Under the pieces are notes generated by a model. It did no database searches, was not told the origin of the DNA, and worked only from the letters and a program-made list of their open reading frames with translations. DNA of 64,000 nt from IMG/VR virus record IMGVR_UViG_3300044633_000521, one strand, 5' to 3'. Every line of letters begins with the position of its first letter. Position 1 is the first letter of the stretch. Positions 35,143 to 47,820 of the stretch are shown here, in pieces. The position numbers and the translations under genes are program-made. The DNA comes from a virus.

Positions 35143-36084
35143 ATGACTCTCAAACCTGTTAACGCACATCTAGATAGTGTTACCATCAGTGATATTGAAC
35201 TTCACAAATTAATCACGACTGCTGAACTAGATAAAGATCTAAAGAATCTAGACAAGTTTGATGCTGACACCAACGCCAATAACTTTGCTGGCAATCCGTT
35301 CCTATACCACTTTCAATTTAAGAATCTACTTAAATGTCGCAGACAAGATGGCAAAACAATCTACGACATTGCTAACGATTCAACAGAATGGGCTAAGTTA
35401 ATAGACAGCACACGCAAACGTAATCGTGGCGGTCGCACAGCGGCAGGTAATGTGTTTGAATGTTTCCGTATTAACTTAGGCAGTATTGTTATGTTCAAAG
35501 CAACTACTGCCAAATACCTATATAAGAAGTATCGAGCAAAGAGTGTACTAGATCCTACAGCAGGATGGGGCGGACGTATGTTAGGTGCTTGGAGTTTGGG
35601 CATCGACTATACAGGCATAGACACTAACATAGAAATGAAACCTGCTTATGAAAGCATGATCACATTCTTAGATGAGTATACAGGATTTAAGAATAAAAAC
35701 TTTAAAGTCGAACGTGCTGGACTGCGTCAAATGATATGGGATAGCTGTTTAGCAGTAGACTTTAGTAAATTAGACTATGACTTTGTACTTACTAGCCCGC
35801 CGTATATCAACTTAGAGATATACGAGCACATGGAATTATGGGACAGTGACACTGCGTTCTATAAAGAGTTCTTTATACCCTTGTGGCAGAAATGTGTAGA
35901 TAATATCAAGCAAGGCGGGCATGTTTGTTTTAACATTAGTCCTAAGATGTACGAAGACGCTGTAAAGAATGGACTTACACCTTGCGATGAAGAAGAGGAT
36001 CTATTACAGCAAATGGGTCAGAAGAAAGAGTTGCTGACCACAGGTAAAAAGAAACATGATAAGATTTACATCTGGCACTGTTAA
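35143..36084 (+). CDS. DNA amino-methyltransferase (N4C/N6A)
   Basis: VLDPTAGWGGR motif I and TSPPY motif IV. Confidence 0.85.
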   Translation: MTLKPVNAHLDSVTISDIELHKLITTAELDKDLKNLDKFDADTNANNFAGNPFLYHFQFKNLLKCRRQDGKTIYDIANDSTEWAKLIDSTRKRNRGGRTAAGNVFECFRINLGSIVMFKATTAKYLYKKYRAKSVLDPTAGWGGRMLGAWSLGIDYTGIDTNIEMKPAYESMITFLDEYTGFKNKNFKVERAGLRQMIWDSCLAVDFSKLDYDFVLTSPPYINLEIYEHMELWDSDTAFYKEFFIPLWQKCVDNIKQGGHVCFNISPKMYEDAVKNGLTPCDEEEDLLQQMGQKKELLTTGKKKHDKIYIWHC

Positions 36085-36089
36085 AATGA

Positions 36090-36118
36090 TTGACACTGAT
36101 CAATAAAGGTGTTATAAT
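36090..36118 (+). promoter_or_regulatory. Sigma70-type promoter
   Basis: TTGACA-N17-TATAAT. Confidence 0.85.
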
Positions 36119-36149
36119 AGTTTTTTAAATGATAATTTAGGACAATAAA

Positions 36150-36392
36150 ATGGCCGCAACAAAAAGTTCAGTAGAGGTTTATAATATCGACGATGCGCTA
36201 GCAGTATTTGATAATAATCAATTTAAGTTAATACTTGCGGCTGCTATACGTGCTCGTGAAATTGCTACTGCTCGTACTATAGCCGAACGTGCTGGCTCTA
36301 AAGTTAAATATGCTAATCGTGCCAATGTATCTGCAATTATTGAATTTGCTGAAGGTAAGATTGGTAAAGAGTATCTAGACAAGGTACGATAA
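36150..36392 (+). CDS. rpoZ: RNA polymerase omega subunit homolog
   Basis: DDALAVFDNNQFKLILAAAIRAREI...AIIEFAEGKI matches the omega pattern NRFDLVLVAARRARQ...ALREIEEG. Confidence 0.85.
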   Translation: MAATKSSVEVYNIDDALAVFDNNQFKLILAAAIRAREIATARTIAERAGSKVKYANRANVSAIIEFAEGKIGKEYLDKVR

Positions 36393-36398
36393 GAATTT

Positions 36399-36477
36399 GG
36401 GCCCGAAGCTTAAACCTGGTATAAGCACTCGGCTCATAACCGAAAGACAGTGAGTTCAAATCTCACCAGGCCCACCA
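36399..36477 (+). tRNA. tRNA with CAT anticodon (Ile2 or elongator Met)
   Basis: Cloverleaf, GGGCCC acceptor, loop CTCATAA, encoded CCA. Confidence 0.85.
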
Positions 36478-36491
36478 AATAAAGGACAAGT

Positions 36492-36665
36492 ATGACAAAC
36501 GAAGAATATGAACAAGCAATGAAAGAGTTTTTAGCCACCGGCGGAGAAATCAAACAAATCGCTCGCGGTGTACAAAGTGAAACAGCAACAACTAACTTCT
36601 GGGGCGCACCTAAAAAGAAACCAAAAGAAGTTGAAGTAATACCAGGGACAGATTTAGAAGTATAA
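36492..36665 (+). CDS. SutA-like RNAP-binding small protein (57 aa, absent from ORF track)
   Basis: AAGGA SD; EQAMKEFLATGGEIKQIARG resembles SutA AMEEFLSRGGKVQEI. Confidence 0.7.
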   Translation: MTNEEYEQAMKEFLATGGEIKQIARGVQSETATTNFWGAPKKKPKEVEVIPGTDLEV

Positions 36666-36695
36666 ATAAAAGATATAAATAAATTAACAAACAGG

Positions 36696-36724
36696 TTGAC
36701 AGGCTAATAAATAGACTGTATAAT
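36696..36724 (+). promoter_or_regulatory. Sigma70-type promoter of leader/tRNA operon
   Basis: TTGACA-N17-TATAAT with extended TG. Confidence 0.9.
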
Positions 36725-37163: not shown

Positions 37164-37247
37164 GGAGTGGAAGCATCAACGGTGATGCAGTGGACTGTAA
37201 ATCCGCCGCCTATGGCACGCCTGGTTCGATCCCAGGACACTCCACCA
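37164..37247 (+). tRNA. tRNA-Tyr(GTA)
   Basis: Cloverleaf with long variable arm; CTGTAAA loop; CCA. Confidence 0.93.
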
Positions 37248-38170: not shown

Positions 38171-38431
38171 ATGACCGAAGAACAACAATTAGCCTGGGAT
38201 ATACTAAGCACGCCAAATAATGCGGACTTTAAGAATTATCGCAGACAGCATCGTATGACATGGTTAACTAAAGATCGCAAGATATTGTTAATTAGAGACA
38301 TGGAAACGGCACATATCATAAGTTGCGTCAATATGTTAGAAGCATTGGGGCAAGAAGAAACCTTGGCCTATAATGGCCTAATAGATGAACTAAGAAAGCG
38401 AGGAGAGCACGATGATGAAACCGTGGATTGA
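38171..38431 (+). CDS. Hypothetical protein
   Basis: WLTKD...LIRDMET.HI motif; leaderless start. Confidence 0.65.
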   Translation: MTEEQQLAWDILSTPNNADFKNYRRQHRMTWLTKDRKILLIRDMETAHIISCVNMLEALGQEETLAYNGLIDELRKRGEHDDETVD

Positions 38432-38831
38432 AAATATCAGTCTTGATGATGTACGCAAGGGCTATCATTACGACCCAGGTTTCAACAGTATGCTAATACA
38501 GATCGTAGATCCTGGTGTAGAGTTTCCAAAGCCTAAATATGACTTTCGCCGAGTACATCAGTTCTACTTCTTAGATGTAGAAGAAAGCGACAGCGAAAAG
38601 TTTTACTATGCGGCAGCCATTACCAACGCTGATGCTAAGGGTATTGCCGAAGCATTAAAAGAAGCATGGAACGAAAGTATGAATGTAGTGGTACACTGCC
38701 ATATGGGGGTAGCACGTAGTGGTGCCGTGGCAGAAGTTGGGCATATGATTGGGTTTAGAGATACAGAAAAATATCGTATACCAAACCTTATGGTAAAACA
38801 TAAGTTAATGTACTACTTGGATTTAGTGTAA
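38412..38831 (+). CDS. Cys-based (PTP/DSP-like) phosphatase
   Basis: VVHCHMGVARS CX5R motif. Confidence 0.85.
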   Translation: MMKPWIENISLDDVRKGYHYDPGFNSMLIQIVDPGVEFPKPKYDFRRVHQFYFLDVEESDSEKFYYAAAITNADAKGIAEALKEAWNESMNVVVHCHMGVARSGAVAEVGHMIGFRDTEKYRIPNLMVKHKLMYYLDLV

Positions 38832-38856
38832 TAGTAAATACAATAAAGGGCAGTAT

Positions 38857-39327
38857 ATGAAAAAACTGAATTTCGACGAAGTGCGTGATTTTATTAACGC
38901 ACAAACTCCAGAAACTAAAATATACATTGGCGGCGATAGTACACGCTTTCGTAAGAACGGACAATGGCATGCCGAATATACTTTGGCTATTGTAGTTCAT
39001 ATTGATGGGAAACATGGTTGTAAGATATTTGGTGAAACATCAACCGAAGTAGATTACGACCAAAAGCGCAATCGACCAAGTATGCGTCTAATGAACGAAG
39101 TATATAAAATTTCAGAATTATATTTGAAATTACACGAAGTATTAGAAGGGCGCGATGTTGCTGTTCACTTGGATATCAATCCAAACGAAGCGCACGGTTC
39201 GAGCTGTGTAGTAACACAGGCAATTGGTTACATTCGCGGTACTTGTAATGTTATCCCAATGGTTAAACCCAACGCCTGGGCCGCTAGTTATGCTGCAGAC
39301 CGTTTACATCACGTATTAGCAGCATAA
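38857..39327 (+). CDS. RNase H-like YkuK/DUF458 family protein
   Basis: IYIGGDS, RLMNEV, VHLDIN, ASYAAD. Confidence 0.8.
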   Translation: MKKLNFDEVRDFINAQTPETKIYIGGDSTRFRKNGQWHAEYTLAIVVHIDGKHGCKIFGETSTEVDYDQKRNRPSMRLMNEVYKISELYLKLHEVLEGRDVAVHLDINPNEAHGSSCVVTQAIGYIRGTCNVIPMVKPNAWAASYAADRLHHVLAA

Positions 39328-39374: not shown

Positions 39375-39449
39375 CGCGGTGGTGGAGCAATTGGCAGCTC
39401 GCGAGCCTCATAAGCTCGAGACCAGGTTCGAGTCCTGCGACCGCAACCA
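39375..39449 (+). tRNA. tRNA-fMet-like (CAT), atypical
   Basis: C1:A72 mismatch, GGAGC D-stem, CTCATAA loop, CCA; lacks the three G-C anticodon pairs. Confidence 0.75.
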
Positions 39450-39906: not shown

Positions 39907-41013
39907 ATGACTAAAGTCTATTGCGCAGCTCCGTGGAGAGGCTTACATATTACAACCGAAGGTGATGTTAAACCTTGTTGTTCTGGAGCATACGGATTTG
40001 GTAATATCAATGAACAAAATATTAAAGAAATATTAAATTCATTGAGCTGGCAAGAATTGCGAGAGCAAATTGCCAGTAATGATATTCCTAATTATTGTAT
40101 AGGCTGTAAACAGCAAGGTGATGTCACTACTAGCGAACGTAACTGGCATAACAATAATAGTTTGGATATAAATGACTTAGGTTCTAATTATCATGCTCCT
40201 GCTATATTAGATGTACGTTGGAGCAATGCTTGTAATTTGATGTGCGTGTACTGTAATCCAAACGATAGTAGTATGTGGGCCAAAAAGTTAAGTATCCCAC
40301 TACAGACTAAACGCAAAGAATATTATACTAATGTCATTGATTATATAACTGCTCATCAACAAAATCTTAAAACTGTGGCATTAATTGGTGGTGAGCCTTT
40401 GTTAATTCCGCAATGCGCAGACCTGCTTGACAATATACCGGACACAGTTGATATTCATGTAATTTCAAATTTAAGTTTAAACTTAGAAAACAATCCGGTA
40501 TTTCAGCGCCTATCTACTAGAAAGAAAGTGCGCTGGAGTGTGAGTTTTGAAAATGTAGGAAAACAGTTTGAATTTGTGCGTAGAGGAGCAAGTTGGGAAC
40601 AGTTGACTAAAAATTTAGATTTGCTATTGGGCTTAGAAAGAACGCAGGGCCATATTATAGACATACATGCTATTCTCAATATATTAAGCCTAAGTGCTTT
40701 TAAAGTATTGACTGATTTTGCCTTTGACAAACGTATTAAAATTGTATTTCAATTTTTAGATCAGCCTGCGGAATTGGATCTGCGTAAATTTCCTAAGCAT
40801 ATAGTTAATACTATTAAAACACAAGCAGAAAATGTATACAAAGATATTCAAACTGAATGGGATGAGCATAATACAATTGTTCAATATTTTGCTGCTGACC
40901 AAATTGAAGTACCTGATCAAATAGATAATTTTTATAAATTTGTAAATGAGTGCAGCACTGAAGATTTAAAATTTAATCAACTGTGGCCCGAACTAGATCA
41001 ATTACTCCGCTAG
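39907..41013 (+). CDS. Radical SAM protein with SPASM/twitch-like domain
   Basis: YCAAPW, KPCC, CNLMCVYC, GGEPL. Confidence 0.88.
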   Translation: MTKVYCAAPWRGLHITTEGDVKPCCSGAYGFGNINEQNIKEILNSLSWQELREQIASNDIPNYCIGCKQQGDVTTSERNWHNNNSLDINDLGSNYHAPAILDVRWSNACNLMCVYCNPNDSSMWAKKLSIPLQTKRKEYYTNVIDYITAHQQNLKTVALIGGEPLLIPQCADLLDNIPDTVDIHVISNLSLNLENNPVFQRLSTRKKVRWSVSFENVGKQFEFVRRGASWEQLTKNLDLLLGLERTQGHIIDIHAILNILSLSAFKVLTDFAFDKRIKIVFQFLDQPAELDLRKFPKHIVNTIKTQAENVYKDIQTEWDEHNTIVQYFAADQIEVPDQIDNFYKFVNECSTEDLKFNQLWPELDQLLR

Positions 41014-43634: not shown

Positions 43635-44267
43635 ATGAAAATAGAATTCAGTCAAGCAAGATATTTGCTATCGTCGATTAAATTTGACCCAGGTGTAGAT
43701 CACACAACGTTAATAGAAGAACTTAAAAAACAAAAGTGGACTAGTTGGGGAGAAAGTGTTCCTATGGGACACGAAAACTATAACTGGAGTCGACGCTACA
43801 GATTAATGCGTGAAGATATAACTAGTCCTTTGTTAAAACAAATACACGATTTCTTACAAAGCATCGACACGCACGAACCTTTATTAGAAGCACTATATTC
43901 TTTTAATCCCGGATTCGAAGGTATGTGGAGCCTATCGAAAGATCAAATGCGCAAGTGGGCAACACTACACATGGAATTTATGTTAGACAAACCTGGATTT
44001 AAATTAGAACCACACAACGACTATCGTAGACTTGTCGGCGCAGGCATGATATATTTTACAGAACATAATGACCCTGATGTAGCTACAACATTTTACGAAG
44101 ATCGCCAATTAACTAATCCTGTAGTAATGAACACAGAGTTTGGCTCAGGCTGGTTTGCGGCAAATGCTTATGAGAATTACCACAGTGGTATTAATAATAG
44201 CAACTACGATAGATATAGTGTCTTATTAGGCCTAACAATTAAAACTCCGGATGAATATGACCGATAA
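43635..44267 (+). CDS. 2OG-Fe(II) oxygenase
   Basis: HND...YH...RYS; paralog of divergent neighbour. Confidence 0.8.
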   Translation: MKIEFSQARYLLSSIKFDPGVDHTTLIEELKKQKWTSWGESVPMGHENYNWSRRYRLMREDITSPLLKQIHDFLQSIDTHEPLLEALYSFNPGFEGMWSLSKDQMRKWATLHMEFMLDKPGFKLEPHNDYRRLVGAGMIYFTEHNDPDVATTFYEDRQLTNPVVMNTEFGSGWFAANAYENYHSGINNSNYDRYSVLLGLTIKTPDEYDR

Positions 44268-45588
44268 TCGCAAAGTATGGCCAATAAAATCAGATACCTC
44301 ATGCTACCTTAAATGGTCATGGAGTACGATCTATCTCAATCGTGCTACTACTGCTAGTTGTCATCGCACAGTACACAACGATTTAACTGTAGAAAACTTT
44401 GATAATTTCCACAACCTACCTAAAAAGTTAGATGACCGTAAGCGTATGCTTGCTGGTGGGTGGCCTGAGGAAAGTGAAACAGATAAGTTCGGCCTTAACG
44501 GCTGTACATATTGTAAGCACATGGAAGACAAAGGCGGAGTTAGTGATCGCCTAGTGCAACTGCGTAATCTTAAAGGTGTGTTTGAAACCCACACCAACGT
44601 ACTGCCTCCGGAACTTATCGAAAATCCAGAAGCCATAGAAGTTACTCCTACTATTGTAGAAGTCTACTTTAACAATGTATGTAACATGGCCTGCTTGTAC
44701 TGTGGTCCGCATTTCAGTACCATGTGGGAAGAAGAGAATCGCAAATTTAGTGCTGTGGAAGATGGCATTTTAGTTAACCCAAGTTGGGAACGTGATCAAA
44801 CTCGCTATGATGATATGCGTGATAAGTTGTTTGAGTGGTTACGCATTCACGGGCATAAGATCTGGAACTTTGGTATGTTGGGTGGCGAACCCTTCTTCCA
44901 AAAAGAATTTGACATGGTCTTAGATCATTGGGACAACTATCCTAACCCAGACCTGTTCTTTACTATTGTTACCAATCTTAAAGTAGAGCATAAGCGTTTT
45001 GTTGGCTATATTGATAGACTTAAACGTATGGTTGACGATAAAAAGATTAAACATCTTAATATCAGTGCTAGCATGGACTGTTGGGGTCCGCAGGCAGAAT
45101 ACATTCGTTGGGGATTAAAACTTAGCGAATGGGAAAAGAACTTTGAGTACATGGCCAAACAAGAATGGATTATTCTTAATGTTAATCTAACCATTACTCC
45201 ACTTAGTATTAAAACTCTACCCGAGCTTATTGAGAAACTAAATGCTTTAGATAAGTTTAGAGCACCTACTAAGCATATCTGTATTAGTTTTATGCACGTC
45301 TTACAACCTACACAGTTAAACCCCTTGTGGTTTGGCCCTGGTGTATTTACTGAAGATATGCAGAGAGTCATTGACGTCATGCCTACGGTCACAGAATATC
45401 AGCGGAACTTTAAAGAGTATATGGCAGGTATTGCTAACAGCATAGAAAAGACACCGCGTGATCCTAGTAAAATTCTTATGCTAGAAACCTACTTAAATGA
45501 AATGGATCGTCGCAGGGGCACTAACTGGCGAGATTTGTGGCCTTGGTTAGAAGATCAATTTGCGCAAGCGCACCAGGAAGTGTTGTAA
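44257..45588 (+). CDS. Radical SAM protein
   Basis: CYLKW, SCHR, CNMACLYC, GGEPF. Confidence 0.88.
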   Translation: MTDNRKVWPIKSDTSCYLKWSWSTIYLNRATTASCHRTVHNDLTVENFDNFHNLPKKLDDRKRMLAGGWPEESETDKFGLNGCTYCKHMEDKGGVSDRLVQLRNLKGVFETHTNVLPPELIENPEAIEVTPTIVEVYFNNVCNMACLYCGPHFSTMWEEENRKFSAVEDGILVNPSWERDQTRYDDMRDKLFEWLRIHGHKIWNFGMLGGEPFFQKEFDMVLDHWDNYPNPDLFFTIVTNLKVEHKRFVGYIDRLKRMVDDKKIKHLNISASMDCWGPQAEYIRWGLKLSEWEKNFEYMAKQEWIILNVNLTITPLSIKTLPELIEKLNALDKFRAPTKHICISFMHVLQPTQLNPLWFGPGVFTEDMQRVIDVMPTVTEYQRNFKEYMAGIANSIEKTPRDPSKILMLETYLNEMDRRRGTNWRDLWPWLEDQFAQAHQEVL

Positions 45589-45708
45589 AAATACAACATT
45601 TTATCAAACTATGTTGTCAAAAGGCAACACTCTGTTAACGACTACGATAAATACGTATACACTGATAGTATAACATTAGTGTTATCCATTAAAAGGAGAA
45701 GTAAAGTA

Positions 45709-46920
45709 ATGAAGAAATTATTATTAGCAACATTATTAGCTGGTATGTACTCTACAGCAAACGCAGGTATTCAAGTTCCGGCAGGTGATTGGACATTAGA
45801 CATTGGTGGCGTTGTTAACGCTTACTATACAAACACACGCGGCACAGGTAGTGCAGTGGTTGGTGGTCTAGGTGGTCCTAATGCCAATGCTCAACGTAAC
45901 GAATCAAACATTACAACAGGCTTGTTACCAAACGTATTATCAATTTCTGGTAAATCACGTCAAAATGATTTAGACATTGGTTTTACAATCGCTATTAACC
46001 CAGGTGCTTCAACAACACAGGGTGGCGATCAAGGTGCTAATCAAGAAAATCGTCAAGCATTTTTAACTATCGGTGATAAATCATGGGGTAGTGTAAAACT
46101 AGGTAAAGACCTGGGTATTTTTGCTAGTGATGCTATCTTAAACGATATGACATTGTTAGGTGTTGGTGCAGGTGCTGGCGCACTAGCTGGTAACACAACT
46201 ACATTAGGTCGTATCGGTAGTGGCTTTATGTATGCTGACTGGAAATCACAAGTTGCTTACACATCACCAAACTTTGACGGCTTCCAATTCACAGTAGGTG
46301 TAACACAGGCATGGAACGCTCAAACAGCTGATCTAAATGCCGTAACTGCTGGCGTACAAGCTGCTTCAGCTACATCAACAGGACGCGGTGGTGCTCAACC
46401 AGCATTTGAAGGTAAAGTATCTTACTCATTAGAAGGTCCTATTGCTGCTAAAGTATGGTCAAGTGCTATTTCACAAAAAGTTGAAGGTGTAACTGGCTCT
46501 GCCGCAGATGACCGCGCTTATGCTTGGGACGTTGGTACTAATTTAGCTGCTGGTCCATATGGCTTAACTGCTTACTACTATGATGGTAAAGGTATTGGTC
46601 GTACTATTCAATTAGTAGACGGGTTTGATACTACAGGTCGTCGTCGTGATTCAAACGGTGGCTACGTTCAAGGTACATACACATTGCCTACAGCAACTAA
46701 ACTTGGCGTAAGCTGGGGTCAAAGTAAACTAGGCCGTAACAGTGGTGAAACAGCTACCGCATTGGTTTCGAAAAACGAAATGTGGACTGTTGGTGCTTAT
46801 CACCCACTCACAAAACACGTGAACTTAGTAGCTGAATACTCAGACGTTAAATCAGAAGCACAAAACGGTGCTGAAGGTAAATCACGTTCAGTATCGGCAG
46901 GCGCTATCTTATTCTTCTAA
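45709..46920 (+). CDS. Outer-membrane porin (Gram-negative type)
   Basis: Signal peptide MKKLLLATLLAGMYSTANA; R.A...I....WGSVKLGK; YTSP.F.GF; C-terminal Phe. Confidence 0.9.
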   Translation: MKKLLLATLLAGMYSTANAGIQVPAGDWTLDIGGVVNAYYTNTRGTGSAVVGGLGGPNANAQRNESNITTGLLPNVLSISGKSRQNDLDIGFTIAINPGASTTQGGDQGANQENRQAFLTIGDKSWGSVKLGKDLGIFASDAILNDMTLLGVGAGAGALAGNTTTLGRIGSGFMYADWKSQVAYTSPNFDGFQFTVGVTQAWNAQTADLNAVTAGVQAASATSTGRGGAQPAFEGKVSYSLEGPIAAKVWSSAISQKVEGVTGSAADDRAYAWDVGTNLAAGPYGLTAYYYDGKGIGRTIQLVDGFDTTGRRRDSNGGYVQGTYTLPTATKLGVSWGQSKLGRNSGETATALVSKNEMWTVGAYHPLTKHVNLVAEYSDVKSEAQNGAEGKSRSVSAGAILFF

Positions 46921-47001: not shown

Positions 47002-47820
47002 ATGATAAAAATTAGTCTAGACACCAAAGTAAAAATGTTGCAAACGTTTGCCTATGTTGGTTTTATTTACACCATGGCATATCAATTTAATTTAATATAT
47101 CTGCTATTAAGTTTGGCATTTAGCTGGATATTATTCCTAATAGGCGCTAGCATGGGCCTACACAAATACAGTAGTCATAAAAGTTTTGAATGTAAACACC
47201 CTGCCTTTAAGGTGATTATGTTATTTTGTAGTTCTATCCTTAGCCTAGGTAGCAATATTAGTTGGGCCGCTACTCACCGTAAACATCATCAGTTCAGTGA
47301 TAAACCAGAAGACCCACACAGTCCTAACACTCATGGCGGTGGAGTTTGGCGCAGTATTAAACTTTGGTTTTATTATTTCCCTACCTATCATATTAACCCA
47401 AGAACAGTTAAAGACTTGATGTCAGACTCTACACATAAATTTTTCCATCATCATTATTTTAAAATTGTGCTAGGGTATGTATTGCTGCTGTCTCTAATAG
47501 ATATTAAGTTAGCCTGTTACCTTTACTTTGTTCCGGTAATTTACGGATTTACTGCTATCAGTTATATCACAGTGCTAGCACACAATACTTGGTTGTCTCG
47601 GTTTGGCTATAAGAATTTTGATAGTCGAGATTTAAGTTTTAACAGTCGTGTGGCTAGTGTTTTTGTGCCAGGCGACGGCAATCATAATAATCATCATGCT
47701 AGACCAGGCGCCGCCCGCAATAAGTTCACAGATCAAGATTGGGATTTGGGTTTTTGGCTAATCAAATTGATTGGGCGTGTGCCAAATAGAGTTCAGTACA
47801 ACCAACACTTTCCTACTTAA
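47002..47820 (+). CDS. Membrane fatty-acid desaturase (delta-9-like)
   Basis: His boxes HKYSSH, HRKHH, HNNHH; DPHSP. Confidence 0.9.
   Translation: MIKISLDTKVKMLQTFAYVGFIYTMAYQFNLIYLLLSLAFSWILFLIGASMGLHKYSSHKSFECKHPAFKVIMLFCSSILSLGSNISWAATHRKHHQFSDKPEDPHSPNTHGGGVWRSIKLWFYYFPTYHINPRTVKDLMSDSTHKFFHHHYFKIVLGYVLLLSLIDIKLACYLYFVPVIYGFTAISYITVLAHNTWLSRFGYKNFDSRDLSFNSRVASVFVPGDGNHNNHHARPGAARNKFTDQDWDLGFWLIKLIGRVPNRVQYNQHFPT

What the first reader, a model, noticed from the sequence alone, without database searches (positions are those of the whole stretch)
36090..36665. RNAP-modulation cassette: omega homolog, tRNA(CAT) and SutA-like protein
Seen: one promoter drives an RpoZ homolog, a tRNA and an unannotated 57-aa ORF with the AMxEFLxxGGxIxxI motif, directly upstream of the attenuated tRNA operon. 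Known: proteobacterial omega forms ppGpp site 1 through its N-terminal MAR residues, and SutA binds RNAP and supports rRNA transcription in slow-growing Pseudomonas. The phage omega starts MAATK rather than MARVT. Inference: the cassette may make host RNAP less sensitive to ppGpp and active in starved cells.
Basis: partly seen in the sequence, partly recalled or inferred. Interest (0 to 1): 0.7.

Follow-up and report, generated by a model that had tools for sequence, protein, structure and literature searches.

The report
Phage-encoded RNA polymerase omega and SutA-like peptide
An uncultured giant lake phage, which has no RNA polymerase of its own, carries a diverged copy of the bacterial polymerase's smallest subunit (omega) next to a tiny peptide holding only the polymerase-binding helix of the regulator SutA, so it probably refits the host's polymerase, though no binding has been shown.

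Summary
A perfect sigma-70 promoter (36090-36118) precedes three genes:
- an 80-aa true but diverged RNAP omega homolog. Profile-profile probability against bacterial omegas is 99.1%, and the top 50 PDB fold matches are all omega.
- a real tRNA(CAT), Rfam 53.5 bits, probably an AUA-reading tRNA-Ile2 type.
- a 57-aa ORF that matches SutA only over its 21-residue RNAP-binding helix.

The order omega, tRNA(CAT), SutA-like recurs in diverged uncultured jumbo phages, at the head of their tRNA arrays. Of 23 viral loci with the peptide, 19 have omega within about 1 kb upstream.

A complete 329-kb relative has no recognisable beta or beta' gene. The window has ten perfect sigma-70 promoters against 0.09 expected by chance. 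Omega is therefore an orphan subunit that most likely docks on host RNAP. A phage porin 57-64% identical to Methylophilaceae porins points to that family as host.

The ppGpp-desensitisation idea is untested. The omega residues aligned with ppGpp-contacting Ala2-Arg3 are Glu-Val behind a conserved 7-residue extension. Against the idea:
- the peptide lacks SutA's activating acidic domain and wedge loop
- the phage promoters have A/T-rich discriminators
- SutA was not found in 61 Methylophilaceae genomes.

No paper on a phage-encoded omega was found.

The parts
36090..36118 (+). Sigma-70 consensus promoter: TTGACA, 17-bp spacer, TGT extended -10, TATAAT. The discriminator that follows is A/T-rich (agtttttt).
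   Evidence: 12/12 match. One of 10 perfect sites in the window against 0.09 expected. Discriminator. A TTGACA-N17-(TGT)TATAAT lies about 50 nt upstream of omega in L023-L025, L107-L109 and L112-L121.
36139..36142 (+). Shine-Dalgarno AGGA, 7 nt before the omega start codon
   Evidence: Read directly from the sequence.
36150..36392 (+). 80-aa orphan homolog of the RNA polymerase omega subunit (RpoZ), with a conserved 7-residue N-terminal extension (MAATKSS)
   Evidence: It is 34-43% identical to Methylophilaceae omegas over residues 12-78.
36399..36477 (+). tRNA with anticodon CAT and an encoded CCA end. It is not an initiator type (G1-C72) and its features resemble tRNA-Ile2 (lysidine).
   Evidence: Rfam RF00005 53.5 bits. 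Cloverleaf with 16 of 21 covarying pairs. C4-G69, C5-G68, U12-A23, C29-G41, A37, A38 and A73 read from the sequence. AUA makes up 24% of Ile codons.
36482..36486 (+). Shine-Dalgarno AAGGA, 5 nt before the start codon of the 57-aa ORF
   Evidence: Read directly from the sequence.
36492..36665 (+). 57-aa peptide in three parts: a SutA-type RNAP-binding helix (residues 3-27), an invariant phage-specific motif RGVQSETATTNFWGAPKKK (25-43), and a short acidic tail
   Evidence: The AF2 model shows a helix at residues 3-15 and the rest disordered.
36696..36724 (+). Next perfect sigma-70 promoter, heading the leader ORF, terminator and tRNA array. It marks the downstream boundary of the unit.

Best explanation
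This is an early transcription unit, read by host sigma-70 RNAP, of an uncultured T4-like jumbo phage whose host is probably a Methylophilaceae bacterium. It makes two small proteins that most likely bind the host RNA polymerase, plus a tRNA.

The 80-aa protein is an orphan omega subunit. It keeps the whole omega core that wraps beta', so it probably occupies the omega site on host core enzyme, either on newly assembled or omega-free RNAP or in competition with host omega. What it changes is the N-terminus that host omega contributes to ppGpp site 1.

The 57-aa peptide keeps the hydrophobic face, the Gly-Gly turn and the short strand of the SutA RNAP-binding domain. It probably anchors on the beta protrusion. 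From there its invariant TTNFWGAPKKK segment and acidic tail would point toward sigma region 3 and the promoter DNA. It cannot act as SutA does, because the wedge loop and acidic N-domain are missing.

The tRNA(CAT) is co-transcribed and cut out of the transcript. It probably reads AUA after lysidine modification.

Shown here: homology, fold, conserved synteny, expression signals, and the lack of recognisable phage beta or beta' genes. Inferred: binding to host RNAP, replacement of host omega, and any effect on ppGpp control or transcription rate.
For: Omega homology:
- hhalign 99.1%, E 5.8e-19, 66 aligned columns, 39% identity.
- All 22 PDB profile hits are omega.
- The top 50 Foldseek PDB hits are omega, TM 0.5-0.67.
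- A profile search of 1.84 billion representatives reaches genuine MARITVEDC-type omegas at about 1e-5.
- The core motifs are kept: NxF.L.LAA..RAR and V.A..E.A.G..G.EYL.

Orphan status and host RNAP use:
- No Pfam beta' or beta match in the 99.6-kb record, nor in a complete 329,321-bp relative with terminal repeats that carries the cassette.
- Ten perfect sigma-70 promoters against 0.09 expected.
- T4-like sheath, tube, terminase, gp32-like and UvsX-like genes.

SutA-like peptide:
- The profile hits SutA 7f0r_G at E 2.6e-4.
- Of the SutA residues whose mutation breaks beta-protrusion binding, M71, F74, L75, G78, G79 and I84 are identical in the phage peptide (M10, F13, L14, G17, G18, I23). L67 and V81 are conservatively replaced by Y6 and I20 (PMC9300723).
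- The 19-residue segment after the RBD lies in a disordered region and is almost entirely conserved, with 15 invariant and 4 nearly invariant positions, which implies a conserved partner.

Linkage:
- Omega lies within about 1 kb upstream, on the same strand, in 19 of 23 viral loci found through the peptide, and about 4 kb upstream in one more.
- tRNA(CAT) lies between the two genes in 15 of those 19.
- The promoter position is conserved.

Host: the window porin (45679-46920) is 57-64% identical to Methylophilaceae porins.
Against: - No binding evidence of any kind was obtained; the complex prediction never ran.
- The window protein falls below the curated cut-offs of Pfam PF01192 (21.1 against 26) and TIGR00690 (15.8 against 23.6).
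- Two positions that are invariant or nearly so in bacterial omegas are changed in the phage family. Arg16 of NRF becomes Gln24. Arg50 of ALRE becomes a variable, mostly hydrophobic residue at position 64. This could weaken or retarget binding.
- Many omega-carrying relatives (L002, L003, L006-L012, L014-L016) have no SutA-like gene or tRNA within 3 kb. The pair is therefore not obligatory.
- Similarity to SutA covers only 21 residues.
- Host assignment rests on one host-like gene.
- Pfam models could miss a very diverged phiKZ-type polymerase.
Confidence: 0.55

Rival explanations
1. By replacing host omega, the phage omega removes or blocks ppGpp site 1. With the SutA-like peptide, it keeps host RNAP transcribing phage genes and tRNAs in starved, high-ppGpp cells.
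For: - ppGpp's 5'-diphosphate is held mainly by omega Ala2 and Arg3 (PMC13192712).
- These align with invariant Glu9 and Val/Ile10 in the phage family. The free N-terminus is displaced by a conserved 7-residue extension.
- Omegas of the candidate host keep MARITV.
- Host beta' keeps R417, I619 and D622, and has K615R.
- Site 1 slows elongation broadly in vivo (PMC13192712), which would matter for a phage genome of about 330 kb.
- The stringent response restricts some phages (PMC13483052).
Against: - Nothing was measured.
- The extension is itself conserved (K5, S7, E9), so it may build a different site rather than destroy one.
- Host beta' has Lys at the guanine-stacking Arg362 position and Lys at Gln623, so site 1 is unproven in this host.
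- The phage promoters are consensus with A/T-rich discriminators, a class not directly inhibited by ppGpp/DksA in E. coli (my knowledge).
- ppGpp0 changes T4 transcription only modestly (PMC6024815).
- The peptide lacks the SutA parts required for activation.
Confidence: 0.2
2. The phage omega is simply an extra assembly and stability factor. It chaperones beta' folding so that more active host RNAP is available during infection, with no change in regulation. The peptide next to it is functionally unrelated.
For: - Omega's established role is to support beta' folding and core assembly; rpoZ mutants recruit GroEL instead (PMC5811629).
- The beta'-facing core motifs are the best conserved part of the phage protein.
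- Many relatives carry omega without the peptide nearby.
Against: - The host already has omega, so a plain chaperone role does not explain the conserved altered N-terminus.
- It also does not explain the divergence (34-43% identity to host-family omegas).
- Nor does it explain the repeated linkage with a second protein that resembles an RNAP binder.
Confidence: 0.15
3. The omega homolog is a subunit of a cryptic, highly diverged phage-encoded multisubunit RNA polymerase, as in phiKZ-like jumbo phages.
For: Some jumbo phages encode split beta/beta'-like polymerases that standard models detect poorly (PMC7598289).
Against: - No beta or beta' Pfam match at E <= 1 in a complete 329-kb relative or in the window's own record.
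- Dense perfect sigma-70 promoters.
- The jumbo-phage polymerase papers returned by the library search held no occurrence of 'omega subunit'; that known phiKZ-type enzymes lack an omega is my recollection.
Confidence: 0.03
4. One or both proteins act as decoys rather than RNAP subunits. The omega mimic could titrate a host factor that docks on omega. The RBD-only peptide could block a host SutA-type regulator.
For: - Regulators can act through omega: GafA of RcGTA binds omega directly (PMC9638019).
- An RBD without the activating domain has the form of a classic dominant-negative competitor.
Against: - SutA-RBD was not found in 61 Methylophilaceae genomes, although the same search finds it elsewhere.
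- No omega-binding host factor is known in this family.
Confidence: 0.05

Closest known systems
Bacterial RNA polymerase omega subunit (RpoZ; Pfam PF01192 RNA_pol_Rpb6; e.g. P. aeruginosa 7f0r_E, E. coli, V. cholerae 9gdo_E, Methylophilaceae omegas)
   Same: - The same four-helix fold.
- The same core motifs.
- Alignable over residues 12-78, at 34-43% identity to omegas of the candidate host family.
- About the same size.
   Different: - It is encoded by a phage with no recognisable beta or beta' gene.
- It has a conserved 7-residue N-terminal extension.
- Glu-Val stands where Ala2-Arg3 contact ppGpp.
- Gln replaces the conserved Arg of NRF.
- The conserved Arg of ALRE is lost.
- It scores below the curated family cut-offs.
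SutA of Pseudomonas aeruginosa (NF041490; Pfam PF20661 SutA-RBD; PDB 7xl3, 7xl4, 7f0r)
   Same: Shares the amphipathic helix, the GG turn and the short strand that bind the beta protrusion. Six of the mutation-tested interface residues are identical and two are conservatively replaced.
   Different: - No acidic N-terminal domain, no wedge loop, and no K60 or R64 equivalents.
- Only 57 aa.
- It carries an invariant TTNFWGAPKKK motif and an acidic C-tail that SutA lacks.
- It is phage-encoded.
- SutA was not found in the candidate host family.
PFL_1563 family small proteins (NCBIfam NF058628), uncharacterised bacterial RBD-only relatives of SutA
   Same: - A short protein made of the RBD plus a tail with a G[VI]S..T...G..K/R pattern, as in the bacterial example L126.
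- This is the best NCBIfam match (E 1e-7).
   Different: - The score of 31.5 is well below the 60-bit cut-off.
- The phage motif ETATTNFW was not found in 185,579 species genomes.
- The function of this bacterial family is unknown.
Small phage proteins that bind host RNAP (T7 Gp2, T4 AsiA and RpbA, Xp10 P7, lambda Orf73/TraR-like)
   Same: They are small proteins, several of them made early, that dock on host RNAP to reprogramme it. TraR homologs act on the ppGpp/DksA pathway (PMC9239242).
   Different: None of them is a homolog of an RNAP core subunit. Here the phage supplies its own version of a core subunit.
tRNA-Ile2 (anticodon CAU modified to lysidine by TilS; E. coli ileX/ileY type)
   Same: CAU anticodon, G1-C72, C4-G69, C5-G68, U12-A23, C29-G41, A37, A38 and A73. 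AUA is common in the phage's codon usage.
   Different: - A8 instead of U8.
- C6.A67 and C27.A43 mismatches.
- The identity rules are recalled from the literature on E. coli.
- An elongator tRNA-Met is not excluded.

Membership tests
RNAP omega (PF01192 / TIGR00690) | Score above the curated family cut-off | tested here: not met
   Pfam 21.1 bits against 26. TIGR00690 15.8 against 23.6. Many close relatives do carry a precomputed PF01192 hit.
RNAP omega (PF01192 / TIGR00690) | Homology to bacterial omegas over the whole core domain | tested here: met
   hhalign 99.1%, E 5.8e-19, 66 columns. All 22 PDB profile hits are omega. The profile search reaches genuine omegas.
RNAP omega (PF01192 / TIGR00690) | Omega fold | tested here: met
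   AF2 pLDDT 86.2. The top 50 Foldseek PDB matches are all omega chains, probability 0.5-1.0 (0.8 or more for the top 38), TM 0.46-0.71.
RNAP omega (PF01192 / TIGR00690) | Proteobacterial N-terminus MAR(I/V)T, which forms part of ppGpp site 1 | tested here: not met
   The N-terminus is MAATKSSVEVYN. Bacterial M1-A2-R3 align with V8-E9-V10.
RNAP omega (PF01192 / TIGR00690) | Encoded alongside beta and beta' and assembled on beta' in core RNAP | tested here: not met
   No beta or beta' match in the window's record or in a complete relative. Physical association with host beta' is not testable with these tools.
SutA (NF041490; PF20661 RBD) | RNAP-binding domain motif | tested here: inconclusive
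   28.8 bits against a 29.3 cut-off on the protein. 29.5 bits in the six-frame search, over the cut-off. Profile against 7f0r_G gives E 2.6e-4. Eight of ten interface residues are kept or conservatively replaced.
SutA (NF041490; PF20661 RBD) | Acidic N-terminal domain and wedge loop required for activation | tested here: not met
   The protein begins near SutA residue 62. NF041490 scores 17.5 bits against a 145 cut-off.
SutA (NF041490; PF20661 RBD) | Binds the beta protrusion of RNAP | not testable with these tools
   The complex job (host beta 1-520, alignment A4, with peptide alignment A2) was sent 14 times and never answered.
PFL_1563 family small protein (NF058628) | Score above the curated cut-off | tested here: not met
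   31.5 bits against 60.
tRNA (RF00005) | Covariance-model score above gathering, and a cloverleaf supported by covariation | tested here: met
   53.5 bits against 29. 16 of 21 pairs have compensatory changes.
tRNA-Ile2 (lysidine) | CAU anticodon, non-initiator acceptor end, and C4-G69 / C5-G68 (the TilS determinants in E. coli, recalled from the literature) | tested here: met
   G1-C72 in 7 of 7, C5-G68 in 7 of 7 and C4-G69 in 6 of 7 variants.
tRNA-Ile2 (lysidine) | C34 converted to lysidine, and charging by IleRS | not testable with these tools
   This needs biochemistry.

The most novel reading that the evidence does not exclude
A virus replaces a core subunit of its host's RNA polymerase with its own version. 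It exchanges omega to rewrite the alarmone pocket or the swivel-module interface. It also adds a second, SutA-derived clamp on the beta protrusion. Together these would turn a starving methylotroph's polymerase into a phage-tuned enzyme. This would be the first case of subunit substitution, as opposed to binding, covalent modification or sigma replacement, as a way for a phage to take over host transcription.
Probability: 0.3. Interest if true: 0.85.

Novelty: new variant of a known kind. Interest (0 to 1): 0.62.

Why it matters
Omega is the least understood subunit of bacterial RNAP. Its established roles are beta' assembly and ppGpp site 1. A natural, strongly conserved viral omega has an intact core and a redesigned N-terminus. 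That makes it a ready-made probe of what this N-terminus and site 1 do.

It would also add a new type to the known ways phages take over host transcription: supplying a substitute core subunit. The RBD-only peptides show that the SutA anchor is a portable module reused by viruses, here in a host family where SutA itself was not found. Both proteins are tiny and easy to express, so the question can be tested directly.

More than 50 omega clusters and about 80 peptide clusters (90% identity) turned up in metagenomes. The three largest peptide clusters in the ESM Atlas are all viral. These proteins are therefore a widespread trait of uncultured freshwater jumbo phages.

Tried and rejected
Steps that gave nothing:
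- Complex prediction (candidate-host beta 1-520, alignment A4, with peptide alignment A2) was sent 14 times. The machine did not complete, so there is no result.
- tblastn of the omega, of two diverged omega-like proteins and of the peptide against 50,697 GenBank phages found no match.
- A scan of 185,579 species genomes for the peptide's conserved motifs found no relative.
- A single-sequence phmmer of the peptide against the PDB gave only noise. The family profile was needed.
- The 'longer' protein search covers only 119 aa and up, so it skips the 100-118 aa range where SutA lies. It returned one over-called ORF.
- The record behind L002 (337 kb) is not held, so it could not be searched. G096 was used instead.
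- blastn of the tRNA against E. coli genomes found no match. Against phages it found only generic tRNA similarity.
- The PF00940 (T7-type RNAP) search found nothing, but no control genome rang either, so it is uninformative.
- A search for the peptide in five omega-carrying viral fragments is inconclusive, because they are only 2-32% complete.
- Literature searches for a phage-encoded omega found nothing relevant.

Ideas rejected:
- The tRNA as the phage initiator. It has G1-C72 and no run of three G-C pairs in the anticodon stem, and another CAT tRNA at 39375 was noted as the initiator type.
- TATAAATA as a general late-promoter signal in this window. There are 3 matches against 9.6 expected.
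Full report
**What is there.** The window is part of an IMG/VR viral record of 99.6 kb that CheckV rates 29% complete. Relatives reach 329-337 kb, so this is a jumbo phage. It carries T4-like tail sheath, tube, terminase, gp32-like SSB and UvsX-like genes.

At 36090-36118 lies TTGACA-17-TATAAT with a TGT extended -10. Ten such perfect promoters occur in the window, all on the + strand, against 0.09 expected by chance. The elements that follow are:
- an AGGA ribosome-binding site
- an 80-aa ORF (36150-36392)
- a tRNA (36399-36474, plus an encoded CCA)
- an AAGGA ribosome-binding site
- a 57-aa ORF (36492-36665).

No terminator-like site on the coding strand was found before the next perfect promoter at 36696. 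That promoter heads the leader and terminator of the tRNA array, as noted earlier by this scan (e1-5739727).

**The omega homolog.** Taken alone, the protein falls below the curated cut-offs: Pfam RNA_pol_Rpb6 21.1 bits against 26, and TIGR00690 15.8 against 23.6. Family-level evidence is decisive, however.
- It has 57 metagenomic relatives at 59-89% identity. JGI names many of them 'RNA polymerase subunit K/omega'.
- Their profile hits 22 PDB sequences, and all are omega.
- Against 1.84 billion representatives, the profile finds 130 clusters and reaches genuine MARITVEDC-type omegas at about 1e-5.
- hhalign against 12 such bacterial omegas gives 99.1% probability, E 5.8e-19, over 66 columns.
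- The AF2 model (pLDDT 86) has four helices, and its top 50 PDB matches are all omega chains.
- The core motifs NxF.L.LAA..RAR and V.A..E.A.G..G.EYL are invariant or nearly so.

The differences from bacterial omegas are also conserved within the phage family:
- a 7-residue extension (MAATKSS, with K5 nearly invariant and S7 invariant)
- invariant Glu9 and Val/Ile10 at the positions of bacterial Ala2 and Arg3
- Gln for the Arg of NRF
- loss of the Arg of ALRE.

**The SutA-like peptide.** Pfam SutA-RBD scores 28.8 bits against 29.3 on the protein, and 29.5 in the six-frame search. NCBIfam's best match is the 'PFL_1563 family small protein', at 31.5 bits against a 60-bit cut-off. Full-length SutA scores 17.5 against 145.

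A profile of 44 relatives hits P. aeruginosa SutA at E 2.6e-4, but only over 21 residues. The SutA cryo-EM paper lists residues whose mutation breaks binding to the beta protrusion: K60, R64, L67, M71, F74, L75, G78, G79, V81 and I84 (PMC9300723). In the phage peptide:
- M10, F13, L14, G17, G18 and I23 are identical to their SutA counterparts
- Y6 and I20 are conservative replacements
- the K60 and R64 positions are not matched (SutA R64 aligns with phage Asn3, and K60 falls before the phage start).

The peptide starts near SutA residue 62. It therefore lacks the wedge loop (residues 54-57) and the acidic N-domain, which that paper shows to be essential for activation.

Instead, the family has an almost entirely conserved RGVQSETATTNFWGAPKKK segment, followed by an acidic tail. 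AF2 leaves this segment disordered. That is the signature of a short binding motif with a conserved partner.

The motif was found in none of 185,579 species genomes. The nearest ESM Atlas clusters are 100% viral. A short bacterial relative (L126) shares a looser version of the tail.

**The tRNA.** Rfam scores it at 53.5 bits, although ARAGORN misses it. The miss is probably due to A8 and the C6.A67 and C27.A43 mismatches. Seven variants from the same position in relatives fold into a cloverleaf in which 16 of 21 pairs carry compensatory changes and the CTCATAA loop is invariant.

G1-C72 excludes an initiator. C4-G69, C5-G68, U12-A23, C29-G41, A37, A38 and A73 match the E. coli tRNA-Ile2/IleRS determinant set as I recall it. 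AUA makes up 24% of Ile codons here. I put tRNA-Ile2 at about 65% and elongator tRNA-Met at about 35%.

**Conservation of the arrangement.** Among 20 viral loci found through omega, the peptide follows omega in four: L004, L005, L013 and L017. The same holds in a more diverged clade (89-aa omega, E about 1e-26 to the profile), where the order is omega, tRNA(CAT), tRNA-Arg(TCT), peptide, tRNA array.

Searching from the peptide instead gave 23 viral loci:
- 19 have omega within about 1 kb upstream on the same strand
- one has it about 4 kb upstream
- two have none within 3 kb
- one lacks upstream DNA.

In 15 of the 19, tRNA(CAT) sits between the two genes. A TTGACA-N17-(TGT)TATAAT lies about 50 nt upstream of omega throughout that clade. 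In still more diverged contigs (L018-L022), omega-like genes sit inside tRNA arrays.

Conversely, many close omega relatives (L002, L003, L006-L012, L014-L016) have neither the peptide nor a tRNA nearby. The pairing is frequent and old, but it is not obligatory.

**Whose polymerase?** G096 is a complete genome of 329,321 bp with terminal repeats (CheckV 100%), and it carries the cassette. It has one omega and no Pfam match to beta' domain 2 or beta domain 6 at E <= 1. The window's own record has none either. With the dense perfect sigma-70 promoters, this makes omega an orphan subunit in a phage that relies on host RNAP. An earlier, unchecked note reports a gp55-like late sigma elsewhere in the genome (e1-5739710). 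That would fit T4-style use of the host core enzyme throughout infection.

**Host.** The window ORF at 45679-46920 is a porin, 87% identical to the one in relative L002. It is 57-64% identical to porins of Methylotenera, Methylophilus and Ca. Methylopumilus. The host is therefore probably a freshwater Methylophilaceae. Findings for that family:
- Their omegas are canonical (MARITVDDC..., about 70 aa) and 34-43% identical to the phage omega.
- SutA-RBD was not found in 61 genomes of the family. The same search finds the phage copy and two bacterial copies among 201 genomes of the class.
- In their beta', the E. coli site-1 residues are R362K, R417, K615R, I619, D622, Q623K and Y626 (Tyr or Asp). 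A site 1 is plausible but not assured.

**Mechanism.** The best-supported reading is that both proteins dock on host RNAP: omega at the beta' omega site, and the peptide on the beta protrusion. I give this about 0.55. It is inference from homology, retained interface residues, orphan status and linkage.

What they do once docked is open. The ppGpp idea has one real point in its favour. Ala2 and Arg3 make most of the 5'-diphosphate contacts (PMC13192712), and they are replaced by Glu-Val behind an extension. Site 1 also slows elongation globally, which would be relevant to transcribing 330 kb in a starving cell.

Against it:
- the extension is conserved, so it may have a function of its own
- the phage promoters have A/T-rich discriminators
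- ppGpp0 barely changes T4 transcription (PMC6024815)
- site 1 is unproven in the host
- the peptide cannot work like SutA.

I give the specific ppGpp version about 0.2, a plain chaperone role 0.15, decoy roles 0.05 and a cryptic phage polymerase 0.03.

**Novelty.** JGI and UniProt pipelines already label such proteins as omega. I found no paper describing a phage-encoded omega or a phage SutA-RBD protein, and none of 50,697 GenBank phage records has a match. The parts belong to known families. The viral, orphan, N-terminally remodelled omega, paired with an RBD-only SutA derivative, is a new variant of a known kind.

The scan had noted this same stretch once more (e1-5739719), with the same reading.

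Noticed in passing
window 45679-46920 (+): A phage-encoded outer-membrane porin (Porin_4 type), 57-64% identical to porins of Methylotenera, Methylophilus and Ca. Methylopumilus, and 87% identical to the copy in relative L002. It gives a host lead, and is also a possible superinfection or permeability function.
   Followed up: partly
window 36661-36681 (+): Two exact TATAAATA motifs (the T4 late-promoter consensus) lie 13 nt apart. They overlap the stop codon of the 57-aa ORF, just upstream of the sigma-70 promoter of the tRNA leader. The window holds only 3 such motifs, against 9.6 expected by chance.
   Followed up: no
window 5887, 36090, 36696, 38136, 39333, 48571, 62132, 62787, 63203, 63354 (+): Ten perfect TTGACA-N17-TATAAT promoters, all on the + strand and all with A/T-rich discriminators. 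Several share spacer motifs such as AAATGAnnG.
   Followed up: partly
window 37164-37244 (+): A weak tRNA match (Rfam 33.3 bits) with a long variable arm and a GTA anticodon. ARAGORN does not call it. It sits at the head of the tRNA array.
   Followed up: no
window 35143-36084 (+): A 313-aa DNA-methyltransferase-like ORF (N6_N4_Mtase, 25 bits, just below the cut-off) sits between the conserved 389-aa gene and omega. In relative L002 the corresponding 508-aa gene is followed directly by omega, so this is a local insertion.
   Followed up: no
L018-L022 (IMG/VR contigs): More diverged omega-like genes (34-48% identity) lie inside dense tRNA arrays of other uncultured phages. Linkage between omega and tRNA arrays is therefore wider than this clade.
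   Followed up: partly
proteins P0171-P0252: Many omega-like representatives of 70-115 aa share an N-terminal LSRGP.ID...C motif instead of MAR. Their source (phage or cell) was not determined. One of them has no match in GenBank phages.
   Followed up: partly
window 38412-39327, 39907-41013, 44251-45588, 47002-47820 (+): Genes interleaved with the tRNA genes: a dual-specificity-phosphatase-like ORF (below the cut-off), an RNaseH-like ORF, a SPASM radical SAM enzyme, a further ORF with a sub-threshold Radical_SAM match (25 bits against 29.5), and a fatty-acid desaturase.
   Followed up: no
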